From the NCBI GenBank assembly GCA_032718475.1, contig JAUCBJ010007475.1:1-64000 (forward strand): 64,000 nt of DNA. The letters are read 5' to 3'. Numbering within the stretch: position 1 is the first letter of the stretch; every line of letters starts with the position of its first letter. Positions 7,464 through 61,965 of this stretch are shown here, one piece after another. A program made the position numbers and the translations under genes. The DNA is from Nemertoderma westbladi (taxonomy: Eukaryota > Animalia > Xenacoelomorpha). The notes beneath the pieces were generated by a model. It was not told where the DNA came from and ran no database searches. It saw only the letters and a list, made by a program, of their open reading frames with translations.

Positions 7464-7979
7464 TGTTAGCTTATTCAATCCCGCTAACACCCCATAAAGT
7501 TATAAGCCGATAAGCAATATTGGGAGCCACGAGATTGGGTAATTAACCAACTCGTGCCATCCCAATAAGAATGGGAAGGAAGCACACAATAGAGGGTCAG
7601 GGGCCAAACCCCTAACCCAGAGAGAACAGGTGGAGTGAACGGGAACACTCCAAAGGGCGCCAACAAGGGTATCAACCAATCAGAGGGGGGAAAGGCATCG
7701 ATTAGGTAGAGTAACAAGGCCAACCGTGCAATATAGCCACTTGGCAGTAATCATACCAATTCAGTTATCTCAGTGCAATACCGGTGCTAGTTTAGGTTAT
7801 TACATAGTTTAGCTAGGGAAGGACCGGGACTTTAGTTACCGTATCCCGCCTTCCATATACAACAATATATCCCATATCTATATCTGTATCTATATCCACT
7901 TATCATATTATATACGACAAACATCAGAACTCATTCACTAAAACCGGATAAACCGGGATCCCTCTTGGATCCCGTCACA
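7464..7979 (+). repeat. 5' LTR of element A
   Basis: tgttagcttattc...gatcccgtcaca; nearly identical to 18462-19004 except for a 28-bp indel. Confidence 0.95.
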
Positions 7980-8055
7980 GTAACTAAACCGAGCTGCCGC
8001 CCTAGTCAAACTGTAAAACTAGCTAAACCACCAGTCACCAATCTGCAGAAGAGAG

Positions 8056-13923: not shown

Positions 13924-14089
13924 AAGGTGCGGGCAGAGGTGTTACCTGTCTGCTAGAAGGGGCGCCTTAACTTGGAGTTAGAGTAGAGTTTAGTCGTCCA
14001 AGTTTTGGACTGAGGGGGGTGGGATTGAGGGCGAGACGCCCTTCCCACAAACAAGATAATAAAATAAAATAAAAAAAATAGTACATGGT

Positions 14090-14760
14090 AGGTACGCAGT
14101 TAGTAGGCAGAGAGTTAGTAAGAAGGTACGTAGTACCCAGTTAGTTAGTTAGTTAGGAGGTACGTAGTACCGCCAGTTAGAGAGTTAGTTAGAGGGTACG
14201 TAAGTACCGTTAGTTAGTTAGTTAGGAGGTACGTAGTACCGCCAGTTAGAGAGTTAGTTAGAGGGTACGTAAGTACCGTTAGTCAGAGAGTTAGAGGGTA
14301 CGTAGTACCGCCAGTTAGAGAGTTAGTTAGAGGGTACGTAAGTACCGTTAGTCAGTTAGTTAGAGGGTACGTAGTACCGCTAGTCAGAGAGTTAGAGGGT
14401 ACGTAGTACCGATAGTTAGTTAGAGAGTAAGAGGGTACATAGTACCGATAGTTAGTTAGAGGGTACGTAGTACCGATAGTTAGTTAGAGAGTTAGAGGGT
14501 ACGTAGTACCGATAGTTAGTTAGAGAGTTAGAGGGTACGTAAGTACCGCTAGTTAGTTAGAGAGTTAGAGGGTACGTAGTACCGATAGTTAGTTAGAGAG
14601 TTAGAGGGTACGTAAGTACCGCTAGTTAGTTAGAGAGTTAGAGGGTACGTAAGTACCGCTAGTTAGTTAGAGAGTTAGAGGGTACGTAAGTACCGTTAGT
14701 TAGAAGAGTTAGAGTTAGAGGGTACGTAGTACCGTTAGTTAGAAAAGAGAGAGTAAGAGG
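14090..14760 (+). repeat. Tandem array of ~18 units (30-37 bp), each with a GGTAC-GTA(A)-GTACC hairpin
   Basis: gagggtacgtagtaccg(a/c/t)tagttagttagagagtta repeated. Confidence 0.95.
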
Positions 14761-15229
14761 TAAAAGGGGATATAGATATAGGTATTAGTTAGCAGTTAGT
14801 AGAGAGAGGGGGGCATATGAGTACGGCTGGATAAATCGTGTGGCCACACGACGCATACTGCTGTACTGCATAGACCCACAGAGTAGGCCAGAATGTGGAT
14901 TAGAGAATAGAATAATCCATAGGTAGTAGTAAGTAGTAGGACAGTAGAATCAAAGTAAATAGATAAATAAATAGAATAGGGCTGAAAGTTGTAAAATAGT
15001 GGCAACACAAGGGAAGTTATTCTAGAACATAATAAAAGTAACGGACAGAAATTGTAAATTACGCTCATTTACTAGCTTCAAAATTAATTAACAATAATTT
15101 AGGTTAAAAGGCGCAGTTAAGTAGGAAATAGGCCATTATCGAACCGTACAGAACATCTTAGATACATCACTCATCTGTATTGCGCCTTGGTAAGGCACCA
15201 CCTTGCAGGTGAGCGAGTGAACGTTCGGA

Positions 15230-17752
15230 ATGGCGAGTAAGTTGATCAGAAAGAGAAAGGCGGAGTCAGGAGGAAAGGAGATACTGGTGGATTTCACCGA
15301 GAGACATCCGGAAGAGAAGACGAGAGGATACTACGAGAGGTTGGAAAGGGGTCACGCGGCACGAGCGCTGCAGGATCACTTCCGGGAGGCGCACGAACAG
15401 CGGCTGGTCGGGACCTATGGGACGCCGTCGCTGGACAACGCGATCTTCCAACACTTCCACTACGTGGTGAAAGGGGACGAGGCGAAGTTCGGGATTCCCA
15501 AATACCCGAGGGAATCACCGAGGAAGGACTGGAAGAGATTCATAGAGTCCGTCAACAGAGGAGGATATATGATCCTAGATGACGAGGGAACCGTGGAAGA
15601 TGAGGCGGGTTCGAGACGAGGAACGGCGGGGTCGGCCAGGACCATACTCCTACATTTGGCCGCGCCAAATGGGGACATCTTCTTATTCGACCTAGGGACG
15701 TATGGGAAGAAGGACGGGCCGAAACTAAACCGGTTACCAAAAGCGGTACAAGTCTTAGTAAGAGAGAAGTCGACGACGAAAGTGGGATCGGCGATTCGCG
15801 AGGATGCGGAGAGAATCATCGGTCCGGACGCCACCAACCTCCTGGATATGCAGAAAGTCTTTATGGCTATGACGGCACCGGATGGGTTGGGGGTAGTCGA
15901 AAACACAGGCCAATGTGGGGCGGTGGCGATGGGCCAATTATTGGGGCTCGTATGCCACAAACCAATGGATTGGGGGAAGTTTAGGGAAGAATACGGAGCA
16001 GAACTAGCGAACTCGCTAAAGTGGGGAGCGAGACCGGGAAAGCAGGAGGTATATCAGTTCCGCAGGGGAGCGATAAAGGTATATCAGAAGCGATATATCC
16101 TGCAGGAGGACTGGATGATGATAAGTTTGCTCAACTTATTCATGACCATAGTTATCGAGAGGGAACCAGGGGCATTTCTGTTATCGGGATCACCCCTAAG
16201 CTACAGGAGAGCCTTTAAGACGGCCTTTGACGGTCTGGTAGACCACCCGGGGCTGAAGGGCGAGTCGGTGTACTACAACAGCCGACATCTGGTAGACAGG
16301 GAGACAGATACACAATATCAGAGATGGGAGCAGCTAGAGGCGGATAGACGAGAAGCAAAGCGACTGGAAGAAGTCGCTAGACGGGAGAGGATAGAAGCAG
16401 AGGAGAGGGAAGAGGAGGCCAGGACACAGAGTTACGGCTTCGAGGAACAGGCGGGCCTAGACGAACTTCATTGGACTTCGTCAGGGAGTTCGGGGGAGTC
16501 TCTAGGGCGAGAATTGGGATGGACGGTGGGATCGCCGAAACAGTCGACGTCGGGGTTGCAAACGATGCCCATACCAGCGGGCGCCGAGGGCGACCAACCG
16601 CCAAGGAAGTTACGGGAGCTAGAGGGATGGAGAGCTACGGGTGAGAGCCAAGGCGGGAAGGGACATAGTGGATCCATCGGGATACCGGGGTTGGAGACAC
16701 TACCAGAAGAAGAGGACGACGACGACGAGTTCGGAGAGATGCCGCCCATCGAGAGGATAGGCCACTCGGACACGGACTGGGTTGGCGGAAGGGTGGTGAC
16801 GGCCAGTGGGGCGAGGGCCTTCTGGAACAGATCCGGCAAGCGGACCTGGGTGCACGAGGAGCCGGCGATGGATTTTGCGGGGAGCACCATCAGGTTGGGC
16901 GAGCAACCGGGAACGGCACCACGGATAGTATTCGGGGAGACGATGCCCGAGAGGGGCAGAGAGATCGACGTAGACAGGGAGACCAACGTAGAGAAGTTCG
17001 CCTACCAGCGACTCCACAGACCGCGGAGATCGCTTGGGACGAAAGACGAGGTGGGACGGGAGACATTGGTACTCGGCTGCGACTACTGTGGGAGACAGAC
17101 CCATCGGGAAAGCAGCTGCCTATACCGGTTCCAAAAGGGAACCTTTTGTCTCTACTGCAGAGAACAAAGCCACAGGATGGGGGCGTAGTGCCACTTTCGG
17201 GGACACTACGGACGCGAGTGCGACTGGATGAACGACGAGGAGAAGTTCACAAGATTCGAGGAGTGGGCCGACGTCGGGGCCATGACGCGCCAGCGCATGA
17301 AGGCCCAGGAGTTCAAGTGGGGTTTCTTCCTTATCAATCAGGAGACTCACATGGAAATCATAAAGCGGAGGCTACCGTTTACCTACCAAGAGGTGGCAAC
17401 GGCGGCGTCGTACGCTGGAGTGATGAACACGCAAAGGTATCTGGACAGGTGGACGCCAGAGAACCGAAGGGAGTTTAGGGATTTCTTGGCGGAGCACGTA
17501 CCAAGGGCAATGAAAATGATCCTATGGGACGCCACTAGAGGGAGACAGCCGGGCCATTCTGAGGGGCCACCGGCGAAGCGATATCGGGCACTAATAACAC
17601 CAGCGCCCAAGGAGCCAACGACCGGGATCAGCAAGGAAATGGCGGCGAAGGTTCGAAAGCAGAAAGCGGATGATGCCAGAGGAACGGTGATAACCAAGAA
17701 ACGACCCAGGGAAGAGGACGCCAGGGGGAACTACCCCCAGAGGAACAGATAG
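15230..17752 (+). pseudogene. Accessory ORF of element A: DEDDy-like 3'-5' exonuclease + zinc knuckles; one in-frame TAG at 17186-17188
   Basis: ILDDEG, LPKAVQVLV....KVGSAIRED, LLDMQ, YILQED; CDYCG..H....C, CLYC...H, CHFRGH...C; collinear with 47007-49607. Confidence 0.75.
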
Positions 17753-18461
17753 GTTCCCAGAGTCGAGGGAGAGAGACTGGGACTTGGACGTGGTACGCCT
17801 GGAAGGCGCCGCGTGGGATGTACGAACTATTAAGTACAAATTCAATTAATGCAAAATAATCATATAAGTGCAATTTGTATGTACGTACGTAGTAATTAGT
17901 AATCTAGAAATATATACGTTCGGAGTAAGTACTATAGTCATACAACCTTTCTCAATTAGCTACTGGGACTGGGGGATAACTGACTACGGCACTATGGACG
18001 AGACACCAGACAATTTCACACTTCTTGAGTGCGACGGCACGAGAGGGGGGGGAGATTCGTCAGAAGGGAAGAGACAGTCGAAGTGAGGTTGAGGGACGGA
18101 ATAATAGTGCGGAGTGCGGAGAGAGTGCGGACGCAATTCTAGTGTGGGGGGGGGGAGAATAAGAGGCTGAGTGAGGGACGAGGAGGTCCGAGTGTGAGAG
18201 AGTTAGGGTGGGAGTGAAGAGGAGATAGGGCGGAAGTGTTGGGGAAACAAAAGTTGCGTGAGAGGTGAGCGCGATCGGCCCGACATGAGACGCCAGGCAC
18301 ACAGGGTAGCGTTATCATACCCATAAGGGGCGGCCTGGAAAGCCGACTCCGAGAGAAAAGAATTCCACCCCACACCCGATACTAGATCGGGATCCAGCGG
18401 GATTGTAGCGCACTTTAGGGTTGATGCTATCTTCTTACCGGGAAGATAGCATGGGGGGGAG

Positions 18462-19004
18462 TGTTAGCTTATTCAATCCCGCTAACACCCCATAAAGTTA
18501 TAAGCCGATAAGCAATATTGGGAGCCACGAGATTGGGTAATTAACCAACTCGTGCCATCCCAATAAGAATGGGAAGGAAGCACACAATAGAGGGTCAGGG
18601 GCCAAACCCCTAACCCAGAGAGAACAGGTGGAGTGAACGGGAAAACTCCAAAGGGCGCCAACAAGGGTATCAACCAATCAGAGGGGGGAAAGGCATCGAT
18701 TAGGTAGAGTAACAAGGCCAACCGTGCAATATAGCCACTTGGCAGTAATCATACCAATTCAGTTATCTCAGTGCATACCGGTGCTAGTTTAGGTTATTAC
18801 ATAGTTTAGCTAGGGAAGGACCGGGACTTTAGTTACCGTATCCCGCTTTCCATATACAACAATATATCCCATATCTATATCTGTATCTATATCCACTTAT
18901 CATATTATATACGACAAACATCAGAACTCATTCACTCTTTATACACGGCGGGGACGCGTGAACTAAAACCGGATAAACCGGGATCCCTCTTGGATCCCGT
19001 CACA
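18462..19004 (+). repeat. 3' LTR of element A
   Basis: Preceded by PPT gggggggag and followed by TSD tttac. Confidence 0.95.
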
Positions 19005-37309: not shown

Positions 37310-37612
37310 TTAATGCTTCCACAAATCAGTTAAAAGTTCAATAAAGACACGTGGGTCACTCAAGATCCGAGAAAGAATAGCAGATGCGGAACTCTTGGCT
37401 TTCGTTAGGGTATCTGCCAGCTGTAGTTTAGTAGGAACCCATTTAAGTAGTTGAATATCTCCAATACGTTCTTTAATAAATGCAAAATCAATTGCAAGTC
37501 GCTTCTCTTGAGGAATTTTTCCACTGACAAGGTCGTAAACCAACCCTTGATGGTCACAATAGTAGTAGACGTTTTTAACTTCAAGTTTTGTGATATTCTC
37601 AATGAGTATCTT
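37310..37612 (-). pseudogene. Copia RNase H C-terminal part
   Basis: EKRLAIDFAFIKE..LKWVPTKLQLADTLTK. Confidence 0.88.
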
Positions 37613-38683
37613 TGTTCGCGGTATTTCAACTTTCCATAACGCGAGTTGAATATTTTTGTATTTATTTAAAATTGATTATTCCGATATTATTACTGGGTGC
37701 GGGACCATGGGTTTTGGGCACATTCAATAAACTGGGGGCGATTTATGGGCGAACTTTGGGGCAACTTACAGGGTACGGGAATAATTTCATAATTATAAGG
37801 GCCAGGGGGGGGGGGGGGATGGAGAATTCAAGCAGTATTCAGGTTAGCCTGAGTACTATTAGGCCCTGGCCAACTTCCTGCTGCCTGTAGGGGTGGATTT
37901 GGTAATGCGCCAGGCCTAAAGGACAAGGACTGCCCTTAGCGGTCCCTGGCCAACAGCAGCTATTACGAGACTGAAAAGAACTCGGACTGCTGACTGCTTG
38001 TGTCAGGGATTTGCGACGGGAAACGACAGCCCCTTAGTAGCCAAGCCGTTCTGGTTCTCGATGATCGAACCCTTCGGGGTTCGTGAGGGGTGGAATGGAC
38101 ACGCGAACGGGTCCACCGACACGACAGACTCCTAGCCAAGCCGTACTGGTTCTCGATGACCATCCTTCGGGGTTCGAGAGGGGCGGTACGGATACGCGAC
38201 AGAGTCCACCGACTGGACCGACCCTTAGCTAAGCCGTGCTGGTTCTCGATGATCGTTCCCTTCGGGGTTCGTGAGGGGTGGAACGGACACGCGACAGGGT
38301 TGACCGACACCGACACTACGGCACTAAGACTAGGACCAAGGGAAAAATCTGGGGAACATTAGGTAGGCTAAAATCTGAGCGAACAGTGGGTAATTAAATA
38401 ATATACCGTAGGGATTTATATTATCGTGTATAATTATTGTGAATATTTGGTGTATATTGATTTGGGGAAGCCCAAAATTATTCTTAATCAGGTTTCAACT
38501 GTAGGAAGTTACATTAAAGAGTATATCCAACTAATGCAGCTTTTTATCAACCGCAAACTTGCATCTCAGAAAACATTCCTTCTCCACAATCAATATCCGG
38601 TGACTGGCCGGGGCTCGGTGGTCTGTAAAGTCACGTCTCCAGCATCGGCGTTTTTCCCCCCTGGTGTAGGGATAACGGCAACA
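37613..38683 (+). repeat. 5' LTR of element B
   Basis: tgttcgcggtatttc...ggcaaca; close match to 49773-50846. Confidence 0.95.
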
Positions 38684-39080
38684 AAATTAAGAATAATTAC
38701 GTTCAACTTCAACTGGTGGAAGTTGAGAATCCTTCAATACTCTTCAAAAACTCTCTACGTGCTTGCCAGCACCCACTACGAGGAAACTCGGGTATTTGAG
38801 TTGAGACGAAGTCGTGGTTTAATTAATCAACAAACTCGATCTAACCAACTCGTAGTCGGCAGATCACATATTTGGAGAGTTGTTAACAGGGAATGGAAGT
38901 ATCGATCACACCCATTGATATAATTCAAGTTGAGCCAGGAATCTGGCACGTCGAAGTTGAAGTACAAGGAACGAACGTCGGACGATTCAGGATTACCGTT
39001 CGGGTGGTCCAAGCTGAGTACAATACCTACGAGGAACTGTTTTATGACATCGCGTATCTAGCTATCGACGAGGCGTTACA

Positions 39081-42000
39081 ATGACGACAAATAACGTATC
39101 CGATACCGACGAGATGGATCACCACACAGACTCGGAAGCCGACGAGGTACCAAACGTCAAGAACATGACCCGTCGGCTAGGGGCTCTCAAAGGTGGAGTA
39201 ACCCGGGCGTATCAACGGATGGAGAAACAACTCAAGGGAGTCAAAACCCCCCTCAATGAAGTACAAACTCAGCTTCAAAGTATCCGAAATATCCTACAGC
39301 GGTACGAAAGAATGATACAGGCGTACCAAGAGCTCGTTCCCTCCACCGATCAGGAAAACTACCCCAAGTTGGAAGAACACGTTGTACATCTAGATGGGTT
39401 CCGCAAACAACACCGGAGGACCCTCAGCCTTGTGAGAGGCTATGAAGAACAGTATTACAAGAGGGCTGAAAGAACAGACGCGGAATCAGTACGATCCTCC
39501 AGCATCAGGACAGCAGTACATCGCAAGAGAACGGGGTCCGCTAGAAATCAGCACTCCAGCGCTAGGAGCGAGATATCCGGCTCAGCGCGCAGTTCTCAAG
39601 GGGCGCCGCCACTCCGAGACCAACTGCGAGAACGGAAGGCATTAGCCCTCAAAGCTCGGATGGAAGATGAGTATATTCAACTGCAAGCCGAGCAAGATGT
39701 ATTAGCCGCCGAAACACAAAGGCGAGAGGCCGAACAAGCGGCTGAACGGCAGGCCGAACAACGCGAACAGGAGGCCGAGCAACGCAAACGAGAGGACGAA
39801 CAACATAGACGAGAGGATGAACGGCAGGCCGAACAACGCAAACAGGAGGCCGAACAACGCAAACAGGAGGCCGAACATCGCGGACGAGAGGCCGAACGAG
39901 AGATCGAACAACGTAAATGGGAAGCAGAAATGCGTTAACAACACGCCGAGGCACAAGCAATTCTCATCCACAAAAAGAATGCGGATATTGCAAAACTCGC
40001 GGAATACGAAGCCGCACTTATAGAACGGGATATTCAACTCTACGAGGACTGGGAAAGGGATATAGATCAGGAATATGAACCAATCCCGGTACCGGAATTA
40101 GAAAAGTCATTTATACCGACAGCGGCGAAACTTCCGAAACCCGAGATCCCGCCGACCAAACAGTCTACGCTATCGGCACAAGCACCGGTGTTCCATCCCC
40201 CACCGGCTACGCTAAAGAATGAGGAACCTTATTTCCCATCCAACACCACGACAGCGAGTGTACCCAAGTACGAGCCTGAAAAGGACTTGGAACGGGACGC
40301 CACTCCCCGATCTAACAACCCATTTACATCCACACCACAAACTCGTAGCCGCGTCATTATTAAAACTCCACCTATTATTGATCCATCAAGTATGGGAGTG
40401 AGTGCCAATAACTATAACCCTCCGAGTCACTCTAGTTCAGACGACGTCAGCATCATCCGGGCGTTGGAGAACCGCCTTGCCATGCCTAAGATGGAGATTC
40501 GCACCTTCGAAGGAGATCCCGTCGATTACCTCAGATTCAAGAAATGGTTCTTTGCGCAGATCGGATCAACGGACATAGCCGACGCACAGAAGTTGGTATA
40601 TTTATCGCAATACCTGGGTGACAAACCACGCAGAATTATTGCATGTTTTGAAGGAGGTTCTCATGAGGCATACTATGACGCATGGAAAACTCTAGATAAA
40701 AGATACGGAAATACCGGAACTATAATTAATAAAACTCTAGAGAGACTGATACAGGACGCGGGATCACTAGGGGACCCACAGAACATCCAGGAATTCTCCG
40801 ACTCTATGAAGGATGCCTACTATACTCTGAAACCCTTAAATAAGGAGGACCAGGTGAACAACATTCTAAACCTCCGACAGATCGCCCGGAAGTTCCCTGG
40901 ATGGCTACAAAGTAAGTGGGCTTATAAATGTGTAGATCTCCGGCGCAGACATCCAGATCGAGATCCTAGCTTCCTTGAAATGTCGGCATTCCTGGACGAT
41001 ATCTCCGAAGCCATGAATGACTCGATGTTTTCAAAACAGAGTCTCGCAAAGTTGGACGGAATAGAGAGCAACTCCAGGAGTAAGATAACCCCTCCGAAAC
41101 CGAGATTCCGCCCCCCACCGGTGAGTACGATGGCCATCACCATGGCCGAGGATTCCGACGACGAAGACTACGAGGAACCGACATCCGCCGAGGAATGGGC
41201 ATGTTATCTCGCGAGTTGGGCACCCGAAAGGGAAGGCATCACAAATTCCCTGCTCTGTCTCTTCTGTGGGGAGAAACATAAAGTGGAATTCTGCAGAAAG
41301 TTTCAGTTCGCCGAACTCGTCCCACGCTTCGAGGCGATAATGAAACACCGAGGATGCTTCCGGTGTCTTGGAACAGGTCACTATGTTCGGGAGTGCGACC
41401 AAAGATCATGCTGTGCTGTCTGTAACGACCAACGCCATCACACGCTCCTCCACATCCCCGCGAACTTCGATTTTACTACCCTCCCCTTTCGGATCGAAGC
41501 CAGGCGAAGAGGAGAAACAAACCACGTCTTCAAAGCAACCCGGACAACCCAACGGAGAGAAACCAACCCGTTTAAAATCTCCACCGATACACCACAAGTA
41601 ACAAATATTTCGGCCACGATTAATCTTATAAATCGCCGCTACATGGTCTTCGCAAAGGTAATCCCAGTAAGGATCCAAGGAGTCGGCAAATCTTTGACGA
41701 CACTCGCGTTCCTCAATAACGGGTCCGACGGAACCATCATCGACCGGGATTTCCTCGAGCAACTCGGCCTAGAATATGAACCTTGTAAACGGCCCATACA
41801 AACCATCACCGATAACAGAGAGGTAGAGTCCGGGGAGGTGCAACTCCAGATGGAAGGAGTGATGAAGGGCTACGAAAAGGTTAAGTTAACCATCAAGAAC
41901 GCCTTGGTACACACAGACCTCCGGGTGCGGTTCCGACAATCAGCCGAGTACGCACCCCTCATACAATTGGACCGAGACGATGTAGACCTGAGGTGCCCGC

Positions 42001-45000
42001 AGTTGGACGTAAACCGCATCACCCTACTGATCGGACTTGATACACCGGAACTACACATCCCCACCGGAGATATCGCCCGATCTATAAAACAGGATGACGG
42101 ATTTTATGCTGAACGAACAATAATGGGATGGACACTCTGCGGCATTAAGGAGGAAACTACTGACACCTATACCTACCTTCCCAAATGTCAGATTAAAGAG
42201 AATGCAACCTCCGTGGGTTATTGCTCGGCTTCGGATCTTGACGAGGATTTGTTTCTGGAAACCGAGAAAACCCAACGAGAGATGACGAAATATTTTAATT
42301 TGGAGACCCAGGAGTTCGCAGAAAAGGACGAAAACCCATCCGAAGAGGACCAATATTGTATGGACGTTCTCGACCAGGCCACGTTTAAAGACGGACACTG
42401 GTGTTCACCTATGTTATGGAAGGACCCAAACAAACCAATGGCAAACAACGCCAGCATGGCACTTAGGTGACTTAAAGGGATTCTACGCCGGCTGAATGAC
42501 CAACCCGAGATAAAGGAGAAATATAATACCGTAATCCAAGGATATCTCGATGATGGATTAGCAGAAATGGTACCACGGAATGAACTGCAAGGTGGTAAAA
42601 GAACATATTATCTCCCAACCCACTATGTAGTAGAAGCCCGCAAAGGTGGGAAAATCCGAGTGGTAAATGATGCTGCCGCTATGTACCAGGGCGAACCCCT
42701 AAACAGTCAGCTTTACACGGGACCCAGCATATATAGTGCACTCATCGGCGTATTGATCAGGTTCAGGGAAAACCGGGTAGCATTCACCTGTGACATCAAG
42801 GCCATGTTTCATCAAGTTCGTACGTTACCAAGAGACTCGGACTGTCTACGTATCCTATGGACGGATAAAACGCTAACTCAACAGGAGATTAGCCAACTCA
42901 CGATAAAGGACGTAGACGTAATGCGTATGGTCGTCAGGATCTTCGGCGCTAAGGACTCGCCAGTAGCATGCAGTGACATGCTAAAGAGGACGGCAACTAT
43001 GTGCGAAAACGAGTTCCCTCCAACCGTCATAGAAACCATTCGACGATGCTTCTACGTGGACGACGGATGCGCCGGCGCGGATAATGTGGATGAGGCATAT
43101 CGGCTAGCAATGGGGATGGTAGAATGTCTAAAGAAAGGAGGGTTTCCGCTCGTGAAGTTCAGATCCCACGACAAAACACTTATGGAAAAGTTTCCGGAGG
43201 ACATCCGGCTGGAAAATAACAAAATGTATTCGGAGGATGTGGAACATTGTGTACTCGGGATTGAATGGGACATAGAATCAGACAAATTCATCTTCAAATA
43301 TAAACCCCTACCCAAGCCTATGACAAAAAGGGGATGTTTGTCGATAAAAAGCGCCATCTTCGACCCACTAAATTTCATATCTCCAGTAACCTTGGCCGGA
43401 ATGAACCTGATTAAGGAAATGTGGATAGAAGGACTGGGATGGGACAAAGAGCTCCCCCCACACCTCAGCATCAAATGGAGAAAATGGACGGAGCAGCTCG
43501 AACACCTACATCTTATGCGGATACCTAGACCGTTCTTCCTCGATAAATTACCCACCGATATCTTCCAGCTCCACACCTTTTCGGATGCTTCGAATACCGG
43601 AATCGGCGTAGTCACCTTCTTACGGAGACTAAGTAACGATGGAAACGGCGATACAAGCTTCTTATTCTCCAAAGCAAAGACAGTATCCGGGGAATTCGTA
43701 GCAACGATTCCGAGACTCGAGCTATAAGCTGCAGTTTGGGCAGTAAGACAGAATCGCATGGTCATGCGGAATCTACGGATCCCCATAGAATCTCAACACT
43801 TCTGGGTCGATTCGAGTATAGTTCTCTATTATCTCCACTCTCCATCACGGCGTCACACCACGTTTGTTGCAAACCGAGCCACGGAGATTAAACAGTGTAC
43901 CGGCCGAGAACAGTGGCATCACGTGAACGGGAAGGAAAACCCAGCGGACTTATCAAGCCGAGGCGCCACCCCAAAACAACTCGGTAAGAGTAAACTCTGG
44001 CTTACAGGCCCGGAATTCCTACGGCAGCCACAATTAACATGGAGTACCCGATTCGACCTCGAACTCGATAGCGGAAAATACTCCGAGGACGATAAAGAGA
44101 TCCGTAAAGTCCATCGAAGCAACGCGGTGGAAATTTATAGTTGTCTGACTGAGCCTGCACAGGACTCGGGCAGGCACTATAACGTCGCGACGATCACTCA
44201 ACTAGCGGCGTCTCTACATCGGTTGATCGAGCGAGCTTCATCAATGAGACGGCTCGTCCACCACGTTATAACCCTCCGTAACTTCCTACGGTGGAAAAAC
44301 AACAAACCGATAGTTCAACGGAATATACAAGAACTCATTATCGCGGAGAAGTGTATTGTTAGATATGTCCAGAGAGAAAGTTTCCCCGATGAATGGGAAC
44401 AACTTAGTGCGGGCAAAACATTGAAACCAGACAGCCCAGTCTACCAACTGAGACCAATGATGGGCGAGGATGGACTGATCCGACTGAATACCCGGATGGC
44501 AAACGCACCGGTCGAATATGAGGTTAAATACCCGGCACTTCTGCCCGGAACGTCGACACTAGCTAAGCTATTAATTCTACAATGTCACGAGGACAACCAC
44601 CACGCAGGACAGAATTGGATTATAGCTAATATAAGACAAAGATATTGGATCACCCACATCCAGCCACTGATCCGGAAAGTGTTGAAACGTTGCTTCACCT
44701 GCAGACGTTACCTAGCACCACCAATCACCCAAAAGATGGCCGACCTACCAGCCACCCGTCTACAAGCAGATTCCCCACCGTTCTACGTCACCGGAGTGGA
44801 CTGTTTCGGACCGTTTACGGTCATCGAACGACGATCCAACATCAAATGCTGGGGAGCCATCTTCACCTGCCTAAGGTCTCGGGCAATTTACCTAGATATC
44901 GTGGTAAATCTGACACAACACGCATTCATCAACGCTCTGCGTCGGTTCGTGGCGAACAACGGGACATGCCGCCACATGTATTCCGATAATGGTACAAACT

Positions 45001-45758
45001 TTGTGGGAGGAGAAAGAGAACTTAGAGAGGCGATCGAGGGATGGTTTACCGATAACACCGCATCCCAAGTCTGGAAGGAACACCAGATACAGTGGCACTT
45101 CCAGACCCCCTTAGCGCCCCATACGAGCGGGGTATGGGAGAAACTGATCAAACTAGTGAAACGATCCATGCGCGTCGCTCTAGGCGATACCCGGGTAACC
45201 CATGACACCCTCCGCACAACATTCTGCGAGATCACGGCTACCCTGAACAACCGACCCATTGTCCCTATCCGCGACGACCCCACAGACCTGGAGCCCCTCA
45301 CTCCTAACCACCTACTGGGGAGACCCAAAACCCACGTTCTCCCGGAAACCATGTTCCCGGATCCCAACGAGATCGCGAAACATACAAACTGGAAAAAGGC
45401 CCAAGCGTTGGCAGCGCATTGGTGGAGAATTTGGGCCCAGGAGTACCTCATAACCCTCCGGACCAGGAGGAAATGGAACAACACCTACCGGAACGTCGCA
45501 GTTGGCGACATGGTACTAGTTAAAGAAGATCTCAAAGACCGCATGCACTGGCCTGTGGCGCGGGTCGTGACCATACACCCAAGCAAAGACGGACTTGCAA
45601 GGACTGTGACGATACGAACGAAATCGGGCCACTACCAACGCCCTATCCAGAGGCTGTGCCTTCTTGAAGGCAATGATAGCGGTGATTCTACGAGAGGTGA
45701 TAAGTTCCCTACTACGGATCCTGCTACAGACATTGGTGACAATTATAAATGCGTTTAA
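39081..45758 (+). pseudogene. BEL/Pao Gag-Pol in one reading frame with three in-frame stops (39936, 42468, 43725)
   Basis: All four ORFs share a frame. IRTFEGDP Gag, three Cys/His knuckles, FLNNGS protease, DIKAMF and YVDD RT, FSDAS and IPRLEL RNase H, HHCC + GVDCFGP/SDNGTNF/GVWE integrase. Confidence 0.96.
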
Positions 45759-46029
45759 ACCCTTCTCATCATGTTGACAAACTCTTATAAACTGTGATTT
45801 ATCGACAATGAAAATGGACCCCCCTTAAAACAACTGTAACCACGCAATGGTATTTGTGTTTCCTCGTGTGTTATGTGGAGTCCAGCGTCACCCTGCAGAT
45901 GTTTCGACTGACGCAGGGTCGTTTATGCATTGTTACCCTGATTTTGGTCATCAGGACCAACGATATTGGATTATTGGAAATGGTAAAGATTTGAAGTGGA
46001 ATTCATTGTATTCATTGCAGTATGTTATG

Positions 46030-46460
46030 TTGTCCGTTGCGTGCGCAGTTCGGGGCGTAGGCGGTGTAACGAGTCCAGCTGTAGATCCCGGATTGCCGCG
46101 TAACACCCCCTCTATCCCGTTATTCTGGTGGGTCCATGGTGCATCCACATGACTTCGACGATAGAGGGTTTTATGTTTCTCAGTCGCGTTATTCTGGTGG
46201 GACCGTTGCGTGGATTTTGGGGCGTAGGCGGTGTAACGAGTCCAGCTGTAGATCCCAGAATGTTGCGTAACCCCATCCCACATGACTTCGTCGACTGAGC
46301 TTTATGTTGTTGGGAGTGTTATTCTGGTGGGTCCCTGGTGTATCCATGTGACTTCACTCCTAGCGTCTTCATTGTCCGTTACGTGCGCAGTTTGGGGCGT
46401 AGGCGGTGTAACGAGTCCAGCTGTAGATCCCAGATTGCCGCATAACACCCCTTCCACGAC
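46030..46460 (+). repeat. Three imperfect repeats between pol and the accessory ORF of element B
   Basis: ggggcgtaggcggtgtaacgagtccagctgtagatccc near 46052, 46219 and 46393. Confidence 0.85.
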
Positions 46461-47006
46461 AAAGATTAACCAAAGAAAATGATTGAATGTAGTTGGAAAT
46501 GATGAAAAGGATCAGACAACTCTACTATAAACCTGAATGATGACGCGTATGCTGATGAAAATGAAATGATGCGCACCCTGGTGCTGCGCTTATAACAAAT
46601 GATGATAGCCGGGGGGCTATAACCCCAATGATGATGTGGAAATAAACAAAATGTGAAATAAATGGTGGAACTAAATGTGATGAAATATATGTGGAAATAA
46701 ATGAAATGAGATGAAATAATAATGAAATGAAAAAAGACGAAAAAAAAGGTATAAAAAGGTCTAAAGAAAAGAATTGGAAAAAAGAAAAGGACAAAAAAGT
46801 CATAAAAACTAGTTGGATATTAATGTATAGCTATAGTAACTGTAAATGCTGAATGTATTAGCAATAAGATGATAGATGTCTATATAGCAATGTTATTTAA
46901 TAAACTGAATTAAATGAAAAACTGAATTATTCTGCTATCGCTATAGTTTCAGACTTTCTGGACTTATAATTAACTGATCTAATTTGTAACGGATATAATC
47001 GTAAAT

Positions 47007-49607
47007 ATGGACCCAAATCGCCAAATTATCGGCGAATTACGTAGCACGATAGATCTACTGGAATATTCGCAACCTGGATCCCCTGACTTTGATACAAATT
47101 GGAGTACCCTGCTAAATGAGAACGTGCGAGTCATTAAATTCACCGGGCGAGAGGGACCGGATTCCAAGAATCTACGAGCCCTCCGGTTAGCCGATGCTAG
47201 TACGAGACTGAAAAGAACTCGGAACGCAAAGGCTACCGGAGGGGATGACTTGTCGTATTGGGAAACGTTCCGGCAGAGCGTCTACAGATCCCGATGTTTG
47301 ATCTACGACAACGAGGGAAATGCGACGCCCACCTCGAAAGCGATTACGTTGGCGAGATGTCAAAGTTTCGTCGACGACAAGAGTACGTACCTCGCCCACT
47401 GGGGAAACCTGTCGGAGTGTACGGCAACGCTTCGAGAGGAACGTATATCGACCATCCAGAATCGCGACGACTACCAGGAAAAGTACGGGGCGAAAGAATA
47501 CGGTCGATCCTTAGTCGTCGTCCTCGGAACCCTGGACGGTTTGGTACTGGTGTGCCGAATATTCCCGACACCCAGACAGGAAGTGCAGGCAGCCGGAGCG
47601 ATCTGGTTGCTAGCTCCGGAAATCCAAAAGATCCTCTTCGACTTCGACGTCATTAAAATCGGGTCGGATATCAAGGCGGACGTCCGGAACGACTACGCGA
47701 ACGCTCCTGCAGGAAGAAACCGACGAGACGACCTCAACGCCCTTAGCCATTGCATCGACACTCAAACGCTACTAGCCTGGTTACGATTCGCCGAGTTCAT
47801 GCGAGGATTCCAAGAGGTGAGACCGACGAAATCCGGGATCGGCTACCTCGCTGTGCTAAACGGCGGTATCGACTTCAAACCCCAGAAATTCCGGGACTAT
47901 AATAAAATATATGGTGGATACCCGGAATTAGAAATAAAGAGCGAGCGAGAGGGTCGATGGAAGGACGTTGATCGGAATTGGACGATACACCAAAGGTGGG
48001 AGAATCCCGATCGACGGAACTACGTTTACGTCGTTATGGAATGCTACACCGTCGCTAAGTTTATCTGTAAGACTCTCGATAACCTCATTACGGCGGTTCC
48101 CCTTTCCTTCGTCGACTACGACTGGAACGAGGTCATAAACCACGCGTTCAAAGCGGTCGAGAACATTACACCGGGAGAGACAAAAACGCTCGCCGTTATC
48201 GATTCCTGGGACGAGAGCGGACCTTACGACATCCCTACGATTACCGAACTTCTCGGTGCGGATGAGCCTCTGATCTCTTCGGAAGGGGAAGAGATATGGC
48301 TAAACGAGGGTGTTCTACTCTCCACCCCGAAGCGACAACTCGAGCCGGAGGCCGCTTACCAACCGGCCGCCAAACGGGTTGCCTCGGCCGAACCGATGAA
48401 GAGAACAGGTGCTTACACCCCACGCGGCTCCGGTAGCCCCGTGAGGGAGGTAGCCACTACATCTGCATTGAGCGACTTCGGCGACATATGCCAACGGTTA
48501 TCCCCGTATCCTTTCCCGGGTGGCGAAGATTGGTCGTCGGAGATTCCGAGTACCAGCCACCAACGGACCCGCTCAGCGATACTGGTCGAGGAGGGCCCCA
48601 GCGATGCGCCGACCCCCGACGATCTCCTCGGTATCCCTCCGTCTAAAACCCCGGCTCCTCTTCGCCGACCAGCGGTGGCTACTACACCCGCCGTTCCTCA
48701 GGACCCTATGCGACTAACCCGTTGGTACGCCGAGCAAACTGAATGGATCCACCGCCAGAAACGGTCGTCCGAGTTGAGACCAACGGGACACAAAGAAGGT
48801 TATCGAAGCGAGAACCTACTACGCAAAAGCCTTGCATTCCGCGGGCTACCGGCCACCGCGAATATTCCGAGGAGCGACCGACGACTCGAATATTACGTCG
48901 GCCTCCCGATTCCGATATTCCCCGGTCGAGAGATGCAGTTGGAGGTGTGCGGCGACTGTGGTTCGGAGCAGTGCCCACGCGGTAGAAGGAATCGGGTTAC
49001 CGATTCATGCCTCCAGCTCCTCGGGATACTCTATTGCCCATACTGCGCGACATCGGGCCACGACGTTTCCGTCTGCCCGATCCTATATAACCTCTGCACC
49101 ACGTGCGGTTTCCATGGACATTCCTCTAGCCCCCGCTGCTATATCAAATGTCCAACCAAGGACGTAACCGCTATGGGAAATATGGTCATGTTTGAAACAT
49201 ACGCAAACAGCCACTTAAAGACCAAGGTTCGGAGAAACGCTCGGAATATCGCGCAGGAGATGGCGTGCGGGTATTTCTCCTTCCCGGAACGCCTCCACAC
49301 GTCGGCCACGCTGCCTTTCCATTACGTGGACTTGTTGCTGAGCGCTGGATTATTCGGCCCATTCGAAGTCATTAGACGCTTATACTCGTATAAAGAGGAG
49401 TTTGGTGACGGAGAGTGGTTCCTCGAGGCTCGCAACTCCGAGTTGGAACGACGAACCGATATGATCCCGATGCCATCGAAAGGAAGAGCCGCCAGAAGAC
49501 AAGCCGAAGCGTTGCTCACGATGGATGTTGACGCTCCTCTACCAGCTATAGCGATCGATGAGAGCCGACGGGCGAAAAGGCGAAAGGTGTATCAGAGAAA
49601 GAAATAG
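47007..49607 (+). CDS. Accessory ORF of element B (866 aa): DEDDy-like 3'-5' exonuclease, disordered linker, zinc-knuckle cluster, basic NLS-like tail
   Basis: IYDNEG (ExoI), LAPEIQKILFD..VIKIGSDIKAD (ExoII), CIDTQ, GIGYLA, YVVME (ExoIII-like); CPYCATSGH....CP, CTTCGFHGH; RRAKRRK. Confidence 0.8.
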   Translation: MDPNRQIIGELRSTIDLLEYSQPGSPDFDTNWSTLLNENVRVIKFTGREGPDSKNLRALRLADASTRLKRTRNAKATGGDDLSYWETFRQSVYRSRCLIYDNEGNATPTSKAITLARCQSFVDDKSTYLAHWGNLSECTATLREERISTIQNRDDYQEKYGAKEYGRSLVVVLGTLDGLVLVCRIFPTPRQEVQAAGAIWLLAPEIQKILFDFDVIKIGSDIKADVRNDYANAPAGRNRRDDLNALSHCIDTQTLLAWLRFAEFMRGFQEVRPTKSGIGYLAVLNGGIDFKPQKFRDYNKIYGGYPELEIKSEREGRWKDVDRNWTIHQRWENPDRRNYVYVVMECYTVAKFICKTLDNLITAVPLSFVDYDWNEVINHAFKAVENITPGETKTLAVIDSWDESGPYDIPTITELLGADEPLISSEGEEIWLNEGVLLSTPKRQLEPEAAYQPAAKRVASAEPMKRTGAYTPRGSGSPVREVATTSALSDFGDICQRLSPYPFPGGEDWSSEIPSTSHQRTRSAILVEEGPSDAPTPDDLLGIPPSKTPAPLRRPAVATTPAVPQDPMRLTRWYAEQTEWIHRQKRSSELRPTGHKEGYRSENLLRKSLAFRGLPATANIPRSDRRLEYYVGLPIPIFPGREMQLEVCGDCGSEQCPRGRRNRVTDSCLQLLGILYCPYCATSGHDVSVCPILYNLCTTCGFHGHSSSPRCYIKCPTKDVTAMGNMVMFETYANSHLKTKVRRNARNIAQEMACGYFSFPERLHTSATLPFHYVDLLLSAGLFGPFEVIRRLYSYKEEFGDGEWFLEARNSELERRTDMIPMPSKGRAARRQAEALLTMDVDAPLPAIAIDESRRAKRRKVYQRKK

Positions 49608-49772
49608 TGGATCGGGATATGCCAGGAACATTTATCGAACATTTATTTTTATACAAACTCTAGGCCAAATTAATTAAAAACTATGCAATATTAAATTTGG
49701 GTTTTTTATATTGGGAATGACCTACGCAAACTCAATCTACCGACAGACTTCACGAAGGTCATTGGGGGGGAC

Positions 49773-50846
49773 TGTTCGCGGTATTTCAACTTTCCATAAC
49801 GCGAGTTGAATATTTTTGTATTTATTTAAAATTGATTATTCCGATATTATTACTGGGTGCGGGACCATGGGTTTTGGGCACATTCAATAAACTGGGGGCG
49901 ATTTATGGGCGAACTTTGGGGCAACTTACAGGGTACGGGAATAATTTCATAGTTATAAGGGCCAGGGGGGGGGGGATGGAGAATTCAAGCAGTATTCAGG
50001 TTAGCCTGAGTACTATTAGGCCCTGGCCAACTTCCTGCTGCCTGTAGGGGTGGATTTGGTAATGCGCCAGGCCTAAAGGACAAGGACTGCCCTTAGTGGT
50101 CCCTGGCCAACAGCAGCTATTACGAGACTGAAAATAACTCGGACCGCTGACTGCTTGTGTCAGGGATTTGCGACGGGAAACAACAGCCCCTTAGTAGCCA
50201 AGCCGTTCTGGTTCTCGATGATCGAACCCTTCGGGGTTCGTGAGGGGTGGAACGGACACGCGAACGGGTCCACCGACACGACAGACTCCTAGCCAAGCCG
50301 TACTGGTTCTCGATGACCGATCCCTTCGGGGTTCGAGAGGGGCGGTACGGATACGCGACAGAGTCCACCGACTGGACCGACCCTTAGCTAAGCCGTGCTG
50401 GTTCTCGATGATCGTTCCCTTCGGGGTTCGTGAGGGGTGGAACGGACACGCGACAGGGTCGACCGACACCGACACTACGGCACTAAGACTAGGACCAAGG
50501 GAAAAATCTGGGGAACATTAGGTAGGCTAAAATCTGAGCGAACAGTGGGTAATTAAATAATATACCGTAGGGATTTATATTATCGTGTATAATTATTGTG
50601 AATATTTGGTGTATATTGATTTGGGGAAGCCCAAAATTATTCTTAATCAGGTTTCAACTGTAGGAAGTTACATTAAAGAGTATATATATCCAACTAATGC
50701 AGCTTTTTATCAACCGCAAACTTGCATCTCAGAAAACATTCCTTCTCCACAATCAATATCCGGTGACTGGCCGGGGCTCGGTGGTCTGTAAAGTCACGTC
50801 TCCAGCATCGGCGTTTTTCCCCCCTGGTGTAGGGATAACAGCAACA
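49773..50846 (+). repeat. 3' LTR of element B
   Basis: Follows gggggggac; ends gcaaca, then TSD atctt. Confidence 0.95.
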
Positions 50847-51778
50847 ATCTTGATATATTGCCCAATATCAACACCCTCGACTAATGCATATGTTTGAGAT
50901 GACAGTGTACTCTTCGTCACTCTCCTGGAGCAACGGCTAGACCAATAAACTAAGAATTGTCCCCAAAATACATAAACTGCCAATCGTGAAGGATTTCCGA
51001 ATGCTGCATCAGTAAATACATGAAGATCAGGAAATTCATGCTCAACGCCAACGGATTCTGACGACACGGGTAGAAATTTCAATGTAAAGGATTCCATTTG
51101 ACTTCGTCTCACTTGTTTATTCAAGAGTCGAATATCGCTTGTTGTTGGCTTCGAGACTTGTGAGAGCGAGCCGATTTGAAATGCCAAGTCAGGGCTTCTA
51201 TTTGAGACAATCCACATAAATTTTCCTAATAATGCACGAAACATATATTCAAAGTCGTCATCTGTTGCCAAATCGATTTCGTTGAGAGTTCGAATGTACT
51301 GGGTTTGAGACAATTCAAAACCACCATAGTCTAACTTTCGAATATGTACTCCAAGAAATTTAGTCCAACTGCTGCCAATCTGAACAATTTTACCAACTTT
51401 TAGCAATGTCTGCAGACCATCACAAACTTTAATCACTGATGATGGTAATCCAGCAACTAGAATATCATCCACATGTGTGGTAATAATACCACACAAATTT
51501 CCTTCCTCGTTATATGTCATGTACATGGCTGGATCAAAGAAACTTTGAATGTTTCCCAGTTGACGTAGATTGTCTTGAAGTTTCAAGAACCATTCTCGTG
51601 AAGCATCGGAAAGGCCGTAGACAGCCTTCTTTAATTTCCAGAATCGAGGAGCATCAACGTTCTGAAACTCAACAGGTGGTTTAACATATACAGATCTATC
51701 TCTTGACAAATTACCACTTTGTAAGAAGGCAGTTTTTATATCAACAGCCCATATATTCCAGTCAAATATGGTTGCCAA
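50847..51778 (-). pseudogene. Copia RT and RNase H N-terminal part
   Basis: AVDIKTAFLQ, WKLKKAVYGLSDASREW, HVDDIL, FLGV, FTDAAF, RRVTKSTL. Confidence 0.93.
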
Positions 51779-52098: not shown

Positions 52099-53624
52099 TT
52101 TGTTATTTCAGTAATTCGTATAATATTCTGATAATAACATGACTACAGGTATAGTAAATCACATGCAGAGAGAACAACATAACGATACCGGTAGGTATAT
52201 AACACAGTAGTGATCCCAGTGCAAACGGTAGTTGCATATAATAACAATAATAACAAGTAGGGTAGGCCTACTTCTACTTCTACTGCGGTCCCGACTTTAT
52301 CTATTATCTCTTTATTGATTGGTCTATACGTTTTTGATTGTTTGTACAGAGAAGCGACTGTTTTAGGTTGTTTTGTTTAGATTGTTTTGGATTTATTATT
52401 TGTATCGACTAGAAGTTTTGTAAAATTTGTGAATCTGTACGTTTTATTGTTTTTTTGACAATTCCAATAACTTTTGTACCATTTGTTTTGTACTGTTCGT
52501 TTTATTTTTTTATAATGTTTGGGATGAATATACTTTTTAACTCTTAGTTACTACTGCTACTTTGATTATTTTACTGTTTGTGACGTTTAGCGCCTTACCG
52601 TACTTTTATTATTATTATTATTAACATACACAAAAGATTAAATAATATATATCATAGTTGTGCTGTTGTGGTACATAATGTGCACTGGTTTGAAGGCCCT
52701 TGACAATGTAAAGGAGATGTTAAACACAGCACGTTTCTCATTGTGTCCATGTTTCCATTTTCAAATATTCCTGTTAGACGGTTCAACACAACTGCAGTAC
52801 AGCAATTACTGGTGCCAGACTATCTAAATATTGGGTGTATACGCTACGCCGACAATAAATTTTTATTTTTAAATTTCTTCTAGAGCATATTTTTATCAAG
52901 ATTCCAAATTTGAGAACCGTTTAGCATGATCTGTCTTAATTCTTGAGATATGGCTGTATATCTGTTTGACTGTCGGTCTGTCCGTCACCGTCAGTATGTA
53001 TCCAAAACAATAGAAAGCATATACTACTGCATCGGTTTTCTTGGTCGGTGACTTCATTTCTGATGTCAGTATTCAAATTTGGCCTCGTCGTTTCTGTTTG
53101 TATGCTTGCCCTGCCCGTCAAAATAAAACCGACAGCCTGTTTCTACTGTAAGTTATTGATGACTAAATAATAAAATAGGCCTATTAAATATAATGCAAAA
53201 ATAAACAGATACAGTACGCCAGGGATCGAACACGTCTAATGTCTATGTTGATAAGTAATAGCGAAGTATCCATTCCACTAATCGGAAAGAATGAAAAAAT
53301 AGGCACAATGAGGAACGAACTGTGTTTAACGCCTCCTACAATGTAAATGACACAGTTTTGTATGTATTTCGTTGGCGGCAAATTCAAATCGAAGCGCCAA
53401 CTGCCAGCTCTGAGAATCTGATAGAGAACTCTGATTACCCTGCTGCCTGGCCAGGGGCTGAGTTGTAGTTGGACGTGTATGTCGTGTAGACGTACAGACG
53501 TACCGTCGGTAGATAAGGCTACTGGCAGACACTGATTACCGTACATCTGTACTGCCATTGACTGCTGTACACGACTGTACAGTATCAGAGTACAGCCAAC
53601 ACTTCACAGCTGCACAGTACAGTA

Positions 53625-61341: not shown

Positions 61342-61965
61342 GAGGGTGGCTGGGTGGTCCAAAAAATGTTCACAGGGTACGGGTACCTATTGCCTGACTG
61401 CATGATTTTTTTGGTTATAGAGCTGTAGAGTAACTACTGACTGTTTAACCATGTGACTAATGACTCTGACCATATCTGCATATGGTTTCCCTCAATTGGT
61501 AAAGTGATCATTTATTGTTCTGGTTAGAAAAGCCTGCCTCTGTAACCTTCTCCTTTTCCTCAATTGGTATATTTATATAGGCCTATACCAGTACAGTACA
61601 TCAGCAAATCAACGGGTTTTGGAACTTCAAAATATTGCCAAGTGGGTGTACTGAAACCGATTTTACCCAAAAATTGCTACACACTGACACAACCAGTTAT
61701 TAATACTGTTATTCTGTCCTGCTGTCCGACTATTTGTTTCTCATCTGATATTGATATCATTACAGTGACTGTAGTTAGTTGTTGTAGGAGATACTGAGAT
61801 ACATGCTACAGTCTTGCTACCACCTGATCTAAAATGTCCGACTAATAACATGTACAGTGACAATGACTTGAAATTAGCAGACTCTAATGTCTTATATTGC
61901 AGTATTGTATATTTATTCTGTTCGAGTTTTATTTTTGTTTTATTTTTGAATTTATTTTTGTGTCT

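What the first reader, a model, noticed from the sequence alone, without database searches (positions are those of the whole stretch)
47007..49607. BEL/Pao retrotransposon encodes a 3'-5' exonuclease-zinc-knuckle protein where env would be
Seen: an intact 866-aa ORF between pol and the 3' LTR, with no evident signal peptide or transmembrane helix. It has DxE (YDNEG), L..EI.KIL.D..VIKIG..I..D, IDTQ, G+..LA and Yx3E motifs, then a Pro/Ser linker, a Cys/His cluster and a basic tail. Established: this motif series typifies DEDDy RNase D/WRN/EXD/Mut-7(Nibbler) exonucleases, several of which act in small-RNA pathways; DEDDy ORFs are reported in bdelloid rotifer retroelements. I do not know of this exonuclease-knuckle fusion in BEL/Pao. 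Inference: a nuclear RNA-binding nuclease acting as an anti-piRNA factor, an RNA/primer-trimming enzyme or an RT proofreading aid.
Basis: partly seen in the sequence, partly recalled or inferred. Interest (0 to 1): 0.92.

Follow-up and report, generated by a model that had tools for sequence, protein, structure and literature searches.

The report
Exonuclease-knuckle gene in BEL/Pao retrotransposons
A young, multi-copy BEL/Pao jumping gene carries, where an envelope gene can sit, an extra gene kept intact by selection; its protein is predicted to join an RNA-trimming enzyme to zinc-finger RNA grips, and it likely helps the element blunt the host's small-RNA defence.

Summary
Confirmed. An intact 866-aa ORF lies between pol and the 3' LTR of a young BEL/Pao element (LTRs 98.4% alike, 5-bp target duplication, site empty in two runs). 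All five share a DEDDy-like domain, a linker, a Cys/His domain and a basic tail. The fold call rests on profiles (top solved-structure hits Egalitarian and EXD2, E 0.016 and 0.048; ESM Atlas 0.92 to PF01612); both AlphaFold models failed. Of the 40 best-supported differences among copies, 27 are synonymous (omega about 0.15-0.19). One catch: the first catalytic motif of this ORF (D101/E103) has an unstable alignment register, so activity of this member is open. DEDDy ORF3s are known in rotifer retroelements; eight literature searches found none in BEL/Pao or fused to knuckles, and this scan held no look-alike. Function is untested; my lead reading is an RNA-trimming counter-silencing factor (0.4). 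Genomic context of the three database relatives is unknown.

The parts
37608..37612 (.). 5-bp target-site duplication, left copy
   Evidence: identical to 50847-50851; contigs in runs X1 and X3 join 37607 to 50847
37613..38683 (+). 5' LTR (TG...CA)
   Evidence: 98.4% identical to the 3' LTR over 1078 columns, 8 mismatches; ends
37830..37830 (+). likely transcription start in the LTR
   Evidence: loose end in run X4 that reads as a cDNA template-switch adaptor (adaptor identity recalled); TATA-like word about 30-35 nt upstream
38476..38488 (+). 13-nt LTR segment complementary to the primer-binding position (candidate self-primer)
   Evidence: shuffle p 0.0005; paired in MFE and centroid structures
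38686..38698 (+). primer-binding position, 2 nt after the LTR; does not start with TGG
39081..45758 (+). BEL/Pao gag-pol in one frame, broken in this copy by three in-frame stops (39936, 42468, 43725)
   Evidence: DUF1759, zf-CCHC, aspartyl protease, RVT_1, Peptidase_A17, Integrase_H2C2, rve, DUF5641; stops
45759..47006 (+). 1.25-kb non-coding spacer; TATA-like word at 46750, candidate splice acceptors near 46176 and 46947
   Evidence: pattern scan only; no spliced form seen
47007..49607 (+). ORF3, 866 aa, intact
   Evidence: purifying selection
47259..48161 (+). DEDDy-like 3'-5' exonuclease domain (about aa 85-385)
47307..47315 (+). candidate ExoI, D101-x-E103, followed by about 50 extra residues relative to the relatives
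   Evidence: best motif score 20 versus next 1.5; register unstable, 23 of 60 trial alignments
47679..47681 (+). ExoII-like D225
   Evidence: invariant in 5 of 5; stable in 58 of 60 trial alignments
48027..48041 (+). ExoIII-like Y341-x3-E345
   Evidence: Tyr plus acid in 5 of 5, Glu in 4 and Asp in 1; acid stable in 60 of 60 trial alignments
48948..49313 (+). Cys/His domain (aa 648-769): one canonical CX2CX4HX4C knuckle at 677, further conserved Cys/His, then a conserved module (E730, A733, T739, R742, G755, F757)
   Evidence: family profile matches HIV nucleocapsid at E 7e-4; 11 of 11 listed differences in aa 641-866 synonymous
49563..49604 (+). basic C-terminal tail, likely nuclear localisation signal
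   Evidence: 8-13 Lys/Arg in the last 30 residues of 5 of 5 members; function inferred
49764..49772 (+). polypurine tract
   Evidence: G-run directly before the 3' LTR
49773..50846 (+). 3' LTR
50847..50851 (.). target-site duplication, right copy
7464..18936 (+). second BEL/Pao-type element (E2): LTRs 99.4% alike, gag-protease about 24% identical to the first element's, no RT, RNase H or integrase found
15230..17749 (+). E2's ORF3 homologue (exonuclease-like domain, Cys/His domain, basic tail), broken by one in-frame stop at 17186
   Evidence: profile of the three database proteins hits it at E 5e-19 and 3e-10; alignment

Best explanation
ORF3 is a selected accessory gene of a BEL/Pao lineage whose protein is predicted to fuse a DEDDy 3'-5' exonuclease domain to a zinc-knuckle RNA-binding domain, and it likely works as a separately made, nucleus-targeted RNA trimmer that blunts the host's small-RNA silencing of the element. 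Shown: intact ORF, position, family-wide architecture, purifying selection. Predicted from profiles (about 0.92): DEDDy fold plus knuckles. Inferred: the knuckles grip single-stranded RNA and feed its 3' end to a two-metal site D101/E103/D225/E345 (active enzyme: about 0.65 for the family, 0.55 for this member); the substrate is silencing RNA or its precursor (untested).
For: Fold: a five-member domain profile ranks Egalitarian (E 0.016, 0.14) and EXD2 (E 0.048) as the top 3 of 4 hits among 177,635 solved sequences; ESM Atlas 0.92 to a PF01612 cluster, 25 of 30 hits in that set; P0001 weakly hits PF01612 (E 0.05-0.2). Acidic motifs D-x-E / D / Y-x3-[ED] are complete in 4 of 4 relatives at 16-27% identity. 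Knuckles: profile match to HIV NCp7, E 7e-4; the Cys domain was not in the search query, yet all three database hits carry it. Selection: 27 of 40 listed differences synonymous against 24-29% expected, p 4e-7 or less. Accessory rather than core: own ORF behind a 1.25-kb spacer; a BEL/Pao survey mentions only env as an occasional extra gene (PMC3118150, passages); similar DEDDy ORFs were gained more than once by unrelated rotifer retroelements (PMC5408684); a homologue is also kept in an element without RT. Basic tail in 5 of 5.
Against: No activity, substrate, localisation or small-RNA data. Both structure models are unusable (pLDDT 32.3 and 34.4) and Foldseek found nothing. Solved-structure E-values are only 0.016-0.05, and ORF3 alone hits no relevant Pfam or NCBIfam family. 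The ExoI register is unstable: all relatives' first Asp aligned to D101 in 23 of 60 trial alignments, to Q151 in 9 and to D154/D155 or a gap in 28, and ORF3 78-114 matches a non-catalytic upstream segment of P0003 (score 48) as well as E2's ExoI segment (46). ExoIII has Glu, not the canonical Asp, in 4 of 5. The rotifer authors favoured 3'-end processing of the element's own RNA. The selection estimate uses only the 40 best-supported of 337 listed differences, from contigs.
Confidence: 0.4

Rival explanations
1. Non-catalytic RNA adaptor in the manner of Egalitarian or EXD1: the exonuclease fold and the knuckles bind the element's RNA and route or shield it (for example towards the oocyte or nucleus); cutting is dispensable.
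For: Egalitarian is the best solved-structure hit. ExoI of this member may be degenerate if the Q151 register is right. The Cys/His and tail region shows the strongest constraint (11 of 11 synonymous). PMC5408684 notes inactive DEDD derivatives (Maelstrom, EXD1) that keep RNA binding. That Egalitarian is a dynein cargo adaptor is recalled knowledge.
Against: All four acidic positions are kept in 4 of 4 relatives at about 25% identity, which is easier to explain by catalysis; D101-x-E103 is the best ExoI match in ORF3.
Confidence: 0.25
2. Primer or 3'-end trimming for the element's own replication: the element appears to self-prime with a 13-nt LTR segment, and ORF3 would trim the unpaired 3' overhang back to the duplex so that RT can extend it.
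For: 38476-38488 is exactly complementary to 38686-38698, 2 nt after the LTR end; the bases after the segment do not pair, so a clean 3' end must be made. PMC5408684 proposes 3'-end processing for rotifer DEDDy ORFs.
Against: E2 carries the gene but shows no such match (longest 6 nt, p 0.6; no split match). Earlier scan notes report self-priming signatures in BEL/Pao elements with no mention of an exonuclease (unchecked). In Tf1 the element's RNase H makes the cut (recalled). ORF3 is not fused to Gag or Pol, so packaging is unexplained.
Confidence: 0.2
3. Proofreading partner of reverse transcriptase, removing mismatched 3' nucleotides from cDNA.
For: DEDDy domains include polymerase proofreading exonucleases (PMC5408684); PF01612 is the matching family.
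Against: Closest solved matches are Egalitarian and EXD2, not polymerase domains; a homologue sits in an element with no RT; separate ORF with a basic tail.
Confidence: 0.08
4. A passively captured host gene or a divergent env with no role for the element.
For: Context of the three database relatives is unknown; E2's copy is broken by a stop.
Against: Purifying selection among copies; presence in two BEL lineages about 24% identical in Gag-protease; no intron, signal peptide or glycoprotein match.
Confidence: 0.04

Closest known systems
DEDDy-type ORF3 of bdelloid rotifer LTR retrotransposons (Juno, Vesta) and Terminons (PMC5408684; PMC6431247)
   Same: Separate ORF downstream of pol in the env position; RNase D-like DEDDy domain with acidic residues kept; no membrane domain; function untested.
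   Different: Host elements are not BEL/Pao (the word 'Bel' occurs 0 times in the paper). Their motif reads DEED, here D-E-D-E. The paper notes only a Cys-His-Cys motif in some, whereas this family has a separate, conserved multi-knuckle domain and a basic tail. The paper found no clear departure from neutrality; here omega is about 0.15-0.19. Sequence kinship to the rotifer ORFs was not tested.
Egalitarian exonuclease-like domain (PDB 9uju, 9rvy) and EXD2 (PDB 6k17)
   Same: Best profile matches, over the strand-strand-helix-ExoII-lDtq stretch.
   Different: Cellular single-copy genes with other partner domains (recalled); weak E-values; no knuckle domain of this kind in the matched stretch.
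Nibbler/Mut-7 (EXD3) small-RNA trimmers
   Same: Same superfamily; Nibbler trims piRNA 3' ends (PMC13269885, passage), the reaction proposed here.
   Different: No direct sequence hit in my searches; host enzymes that serve silencing, whereas ORF3 is element-encoded and would oppose it.
Retroviral nucleocapsid knuckles (HIV NCp7)
   Same: CX2CX4HX4C plus a second knuckle-like unit; profile E 7e-4.
   Different: Not part of Gag (the element's Gag has its own knuckle); extra CxxC unit before and a conserved module after.
env of BEL/Pao elements (PMC3118150: few elements contain one)
   Same: Genomic position only.
   Different: No signal peptide, no C-terminal membrane anchor, no glycoprotein match.

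Membership tests
BEL/Pao LTR retrotransposon (host element) | DUF1759 Gag, then PR-RT-RNase H-IN order with Peptidase_A17 and DUF5641 | tested here: met
BEL/Pao LTR retrotransposon (host element) | TG...CA LTRs, target-site duplication, polypurine tract | tested here: met
   empty site
DEDDy (RNase D/WRN/EXD) exonucleases | RNase H-like DnaQ fold | tested here: inconclusive
   supported by profiles; structure models unusable
DEDDy (RNase D/WRN/EXD) exonucleases | ExoI D-x-E on the first core strand | tested here: inconclusive
   clear in 4 of 4 relatives; in ORF3 D101/E103 scores best but the register is unstable
DEDDy (RNase D/WRN/EXD) exonucleases | ExoII Asp | tested here: met
   D225 invariant in 5 of 5 and aligned to the matching Asp of Egalitarian and EXD2
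DEDDy (RNase D/WRN/EXD) exonucleases | ExoIII Y-x3-D | tested here: inconclusive
   Tyr and an acid at the right spacing in 5 of 5, but Glu in 4 and Asp in 1
DEDDy (RNase D/WRN/EXD) exonucleases | two-metal 3'-5' exonuclease activity | not testable with these tools
   needs an assay
CCHC zinc knuckle proteins | CX2CX4HX4C | tested here: met
   exact motif in 4 of 5 members, at 677 in ORF3; NCp7 match
Rotifer retroelement DEDDy ORF3 clade | sequence clade with Juno/Vesta/Athena ORFs | not tested
   their sequences were not in hand; none of the 3 library hits carries a name
Envelope glycoprotein | signal peptide, C-terminal membrane anchor, fusion-protein homology | tested here: not met
   only hydrophobic peak is aa 168-186 inside the exonuclease-like core; no glycoprotein hit

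The most novel reading that the evidence does not exclude
A BEL/Pao lineage encodes its own Nibbler-like nuclease fused to RNA-gripping knuckles that destroys or over-trims host piRNAs: a retrotransposon-encoded enzymatic suppressor of the piRNA pathway in animals, also carried by non-autonomous relatives.
Probability: 0.3. Interest if true: 0.9.

Novelty: new variant of a known kind. Interest (0 to 1): 0.62.

Why it matters
Whether animal transposons actively fight small-RNA silencing with their own proteins is an open question (recalled; my search for a transposon-encoded DEDD suppressor found 0 papers). This gives an intact, selected, soluble-looking candidate with defined residues to assay. 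It extends exonuclease ORF3s from rotifer retroelements to BEL/Pao, supplies the purifying selection that the rotifer study did not see, and defines an unnamed protein family that Pfam does not annotate.

Tried and rejected
No whole genome is held, so no genome-wide tblastn. Single-sequence searches: Pfam, NCBIfam and PDB gave nothing relevant for ORF3 (the Melibiase hit at E 0.05-0.19 is treated as noise); the two-sequence profile gave only FAM111A at E 1.4. Word-index protein searches found no new relative. Context searches failed: viral contigs 0 of 4 queries, metagenome contigs 0 of 2. AlphaFold: single sequence pLDDT 32.3; five-row alignment 34.4 (the alignment was chosen from 60 trials because it put ExoI on D101, so it could not have tested the register); Foldseek on it was meaningless; VIA searches not run. 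A fold with an alignment neutral on the ExoI register was not run, so that question stays open. The Atlas search of the Cys domain did not complete. No RNA holder is on record. A simple internal duplication of aa 78-114 and 115-160 is not supported (score 18, p 0.68). A spliced self-primer in E2 was not found. Summed contig depth is not used to rank genes. An alternative genetic code for the three gag-pol stops was not pursued: they comprise two different stop codons, and ordinary stops end the other ORFs.

Full report
Observation. The window holds an 866-aa ORF at 47007-49607. It lies 1.25 kb after a gag-pol frame (39081-45758) that Pfam assigns to BEL/Pao (DUF1759, protease, RT, Peptidase_A17, integrase, DUF5641) and 165 nt before the 3' LTR. 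The LTRs (37613-38683, 49773-50846) are 98.4% identical and flanked by a 5-bp duplication. Contigs from 2 of 4 laid runs join across the empty site, so this insertion is recent and not fixed. In this copy gag-pol has three in-frame stops, while ORF3 is intact.

Copies. In runs X1 and X3 the summed contig depth across the internal region, pol and ORF3 alike, is about 13,000-42,000, against 136 and 122 for the empty-site contig. The tool warns that this is no copy number; I take it only as a sign of many copies. Of the 40 best-supported differences in ORF3 (297 more were not shown), 27 are synonymous where 24-29% is expected: omega 0.15-0.19, p 4e-7 or less; by region 9 of 14 (aa 1-400), 7 of 15 (linker) and 11 of 11 (aa 641-866). 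Only two indels were listed in the ORF, one in frame, each in one contig of X4. Run X4 has loose ends at 37830 and 47073 that read as a cDNA template-switch adaptor (adaptor identity recalled), which suggests that it is a cDNA library and that ORF3-family sequence is transcribed; no run is on record as RNA.

Family. ORF3 alone finds nothing. Reading the rest of the window showed a second LTR element (E2, 7464-18936; LTRs 99.4% alike) with BEL-type Gag and protease, about 24% identical to the first element's, and with no RT or integrase by tblastn. It carries a diverged ORF with the same motif series, broken by one stop. A profile of the two exonuclease-like regions found 3 proteins among 1.84 billion representatives (E 1.4e-9, 5e-6, 4.8e-4), each a singleton without a name on contigs of 9.4, 11.3 and 3.3 kb. 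All three also carry the Cys/His domain, which was not in the query. A profile of these three hits only ORF3 (E 6e-36), E2's ORF (5e-19) and its continuation (3e-10) among 675 frames of the window; the next is 0.62. The exonuclease part of that test is circular, the Cys/His part is not. Their genomic context could not be fetched, so BEL linkage is shown for 2 of 5 members, both from one genome.

Fold. The five-member domain profile ranks Egalitarian (E 0.016 and 0.14) and EXD2 (0.048) first among solved structures, with one unrelated hit at 1.3. The ESM Atlas gives 0.92 to a PF01612 cluster, 25 of 30 hits in that set, behind two unnamed clusters at 0.93 and 0.92; shuffled proteins reach 0.9 in 4-10 of 100 cases. 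P0001 hits PF01612 below cut-off. These lines are each modest but agree. Structure prediction added nothing (pLDDT 32 and 34). The full-length profile matches HIV nucleocapsid knuckles at E 7e-4; 4 of 5 members have an exact CX2CX4HX4C.

Active site. D225 and E345 align stably (58 and 60 of 60 trial alignments). ExoI is less clear. The four relatives have D-x-E 16-27 residues before the next strand; ORF3's D101-x-E103 is about 50 residues further away. It is the best motif match (20 against a next-best 1.5) and resembles the ExoI segments of E2 (p 0.001) and P0003 (p 0.005), but it resembles a non-catalytic upstream segment of P0003 as well (p 0.001). If that last match is the true register, this member has Q151 at the first acid and is likely inactive. 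The family looks catalytically complete; this member is about 55% likely to be.

Mechanism. Shown: a selected, separate ORF with this architecture in two diverged BEL elements. Predicted: DEDDy fold with RNA-binding knuckles. Inferred: a free, nucleus-targeted protein (basic tail in 5 of 5) that binds single-stranded RNA and trims 3' ends. I favour counter-silencing (0.4) because the gene is accessory, similar genes were gained repeatedly by unrelated retroelements, a homologue persists in an element without RT, and related host enzymes trim piRNAs (PMC13269885, passage). Rivals are a non-catalytic Egalitarian-like adaptor (0.25), trimming of the element's own primer or 3' ends (0.2; this element has a 13-nt self-priming signature, but E2 does not), RT proofreading (0.08) and a passenger gene (0.04). 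No evidence here separates the first three directly.

Literature. PMC5408684 (passages; whole Discussion) describes DEDDy ORF3s in rotifer Juno and Vesta elements and Terminons, with activity not demonstrated. PMC6431247 (passages) and PMC6338049 (passages) repeat this. PMC3118150, a BEL/Pao survey (passages), has 0 occurrences of 'exonuclease'. Eight searches (listings only apart from the papers named) found no BEL/Pao exonuclease ORF; 'Pao' with 'DEDDy' gave 0 papers. No supplements were read, and Repbase, Dfam and subscription journals were not searchable, so an annotation there cannot be excluded. Earlier notes of this scan hold no look-alike; one note on other DNA raised a DEDD-like ORF in an LTR element and was not confirmed.

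Verdict. Real, selected and apparently undescribed in BEL/Pao: a new variant of a known kind. Interest 0.62; the counter-piRNA reading (0.3 in its strong form) would deserve 0.9.

Noticed in passing
window 7464-18936: Second BEL/Pao-type element with near-identical LTRs, Gag and protease but no RT or integrase, a tandem-repeat spacer (about 14100-14760) and an ORF3 homologue; no matching target-site duplication was evident. Possibly a non-autonomous family that keeps the accessory gene.
   Followed up: partly
window 38476-38488 and 38686-38698: 13-nt perfect complement between the LTR and the primer-binding position, 2 nt after the LTR end; no tRNA-type TGG start. The segment lies about 650 nt after the likely transcription start and is followed by CAG/GT, a splice-site-like context.
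   Followed up: partly
window 39936, 42468, 43725: Three in-frame stops and no frameshift in 6.7 kb of gag-pol although the LTRs differ at only 8 positions.
   Followed up: no
window 37830 and 47073 (run X4): Loose ends reading as a template-switch adaptor in a run guessed to be DNA; X4 also shows joints 41684-47975 and 48062-49221 without GT..AG ends on the + strand as listed.
   Followed up: partly
window 26688-28510: Adjacent intron-poor stretches encoding a topoisomerase II-like ATPase fragment (HATPase_c hit; Top2 likeness recalled) and a YTH domain (E 5e-45), overlapping at about 27410; possibly a chimeric retrocopy.
   Followed up: no
window 50756-51778 (-): Copia-type RT fragment (RVT_2) overlapping the 3' LTR end; the BEL element appears inserted into an older Copia element whose other part lies near 37310-37675.
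   Followed up: no
window 29850-33740: Compound satellite with 25-, 35- and 44-nt units.
   Followed up: no
window 21359-23835 and 61342-63806; 19958-20937 and 52666-53620: Two pairs of dispersed repeats, 99% and 97% identical, not classified.
   Followed up: no
ESM Atlas result: The two top feature hits were unnamed eukaryotic clusters of about 213 aa (commonest Basidiomycota), possible further relatives of the domain.
   Followed up: no
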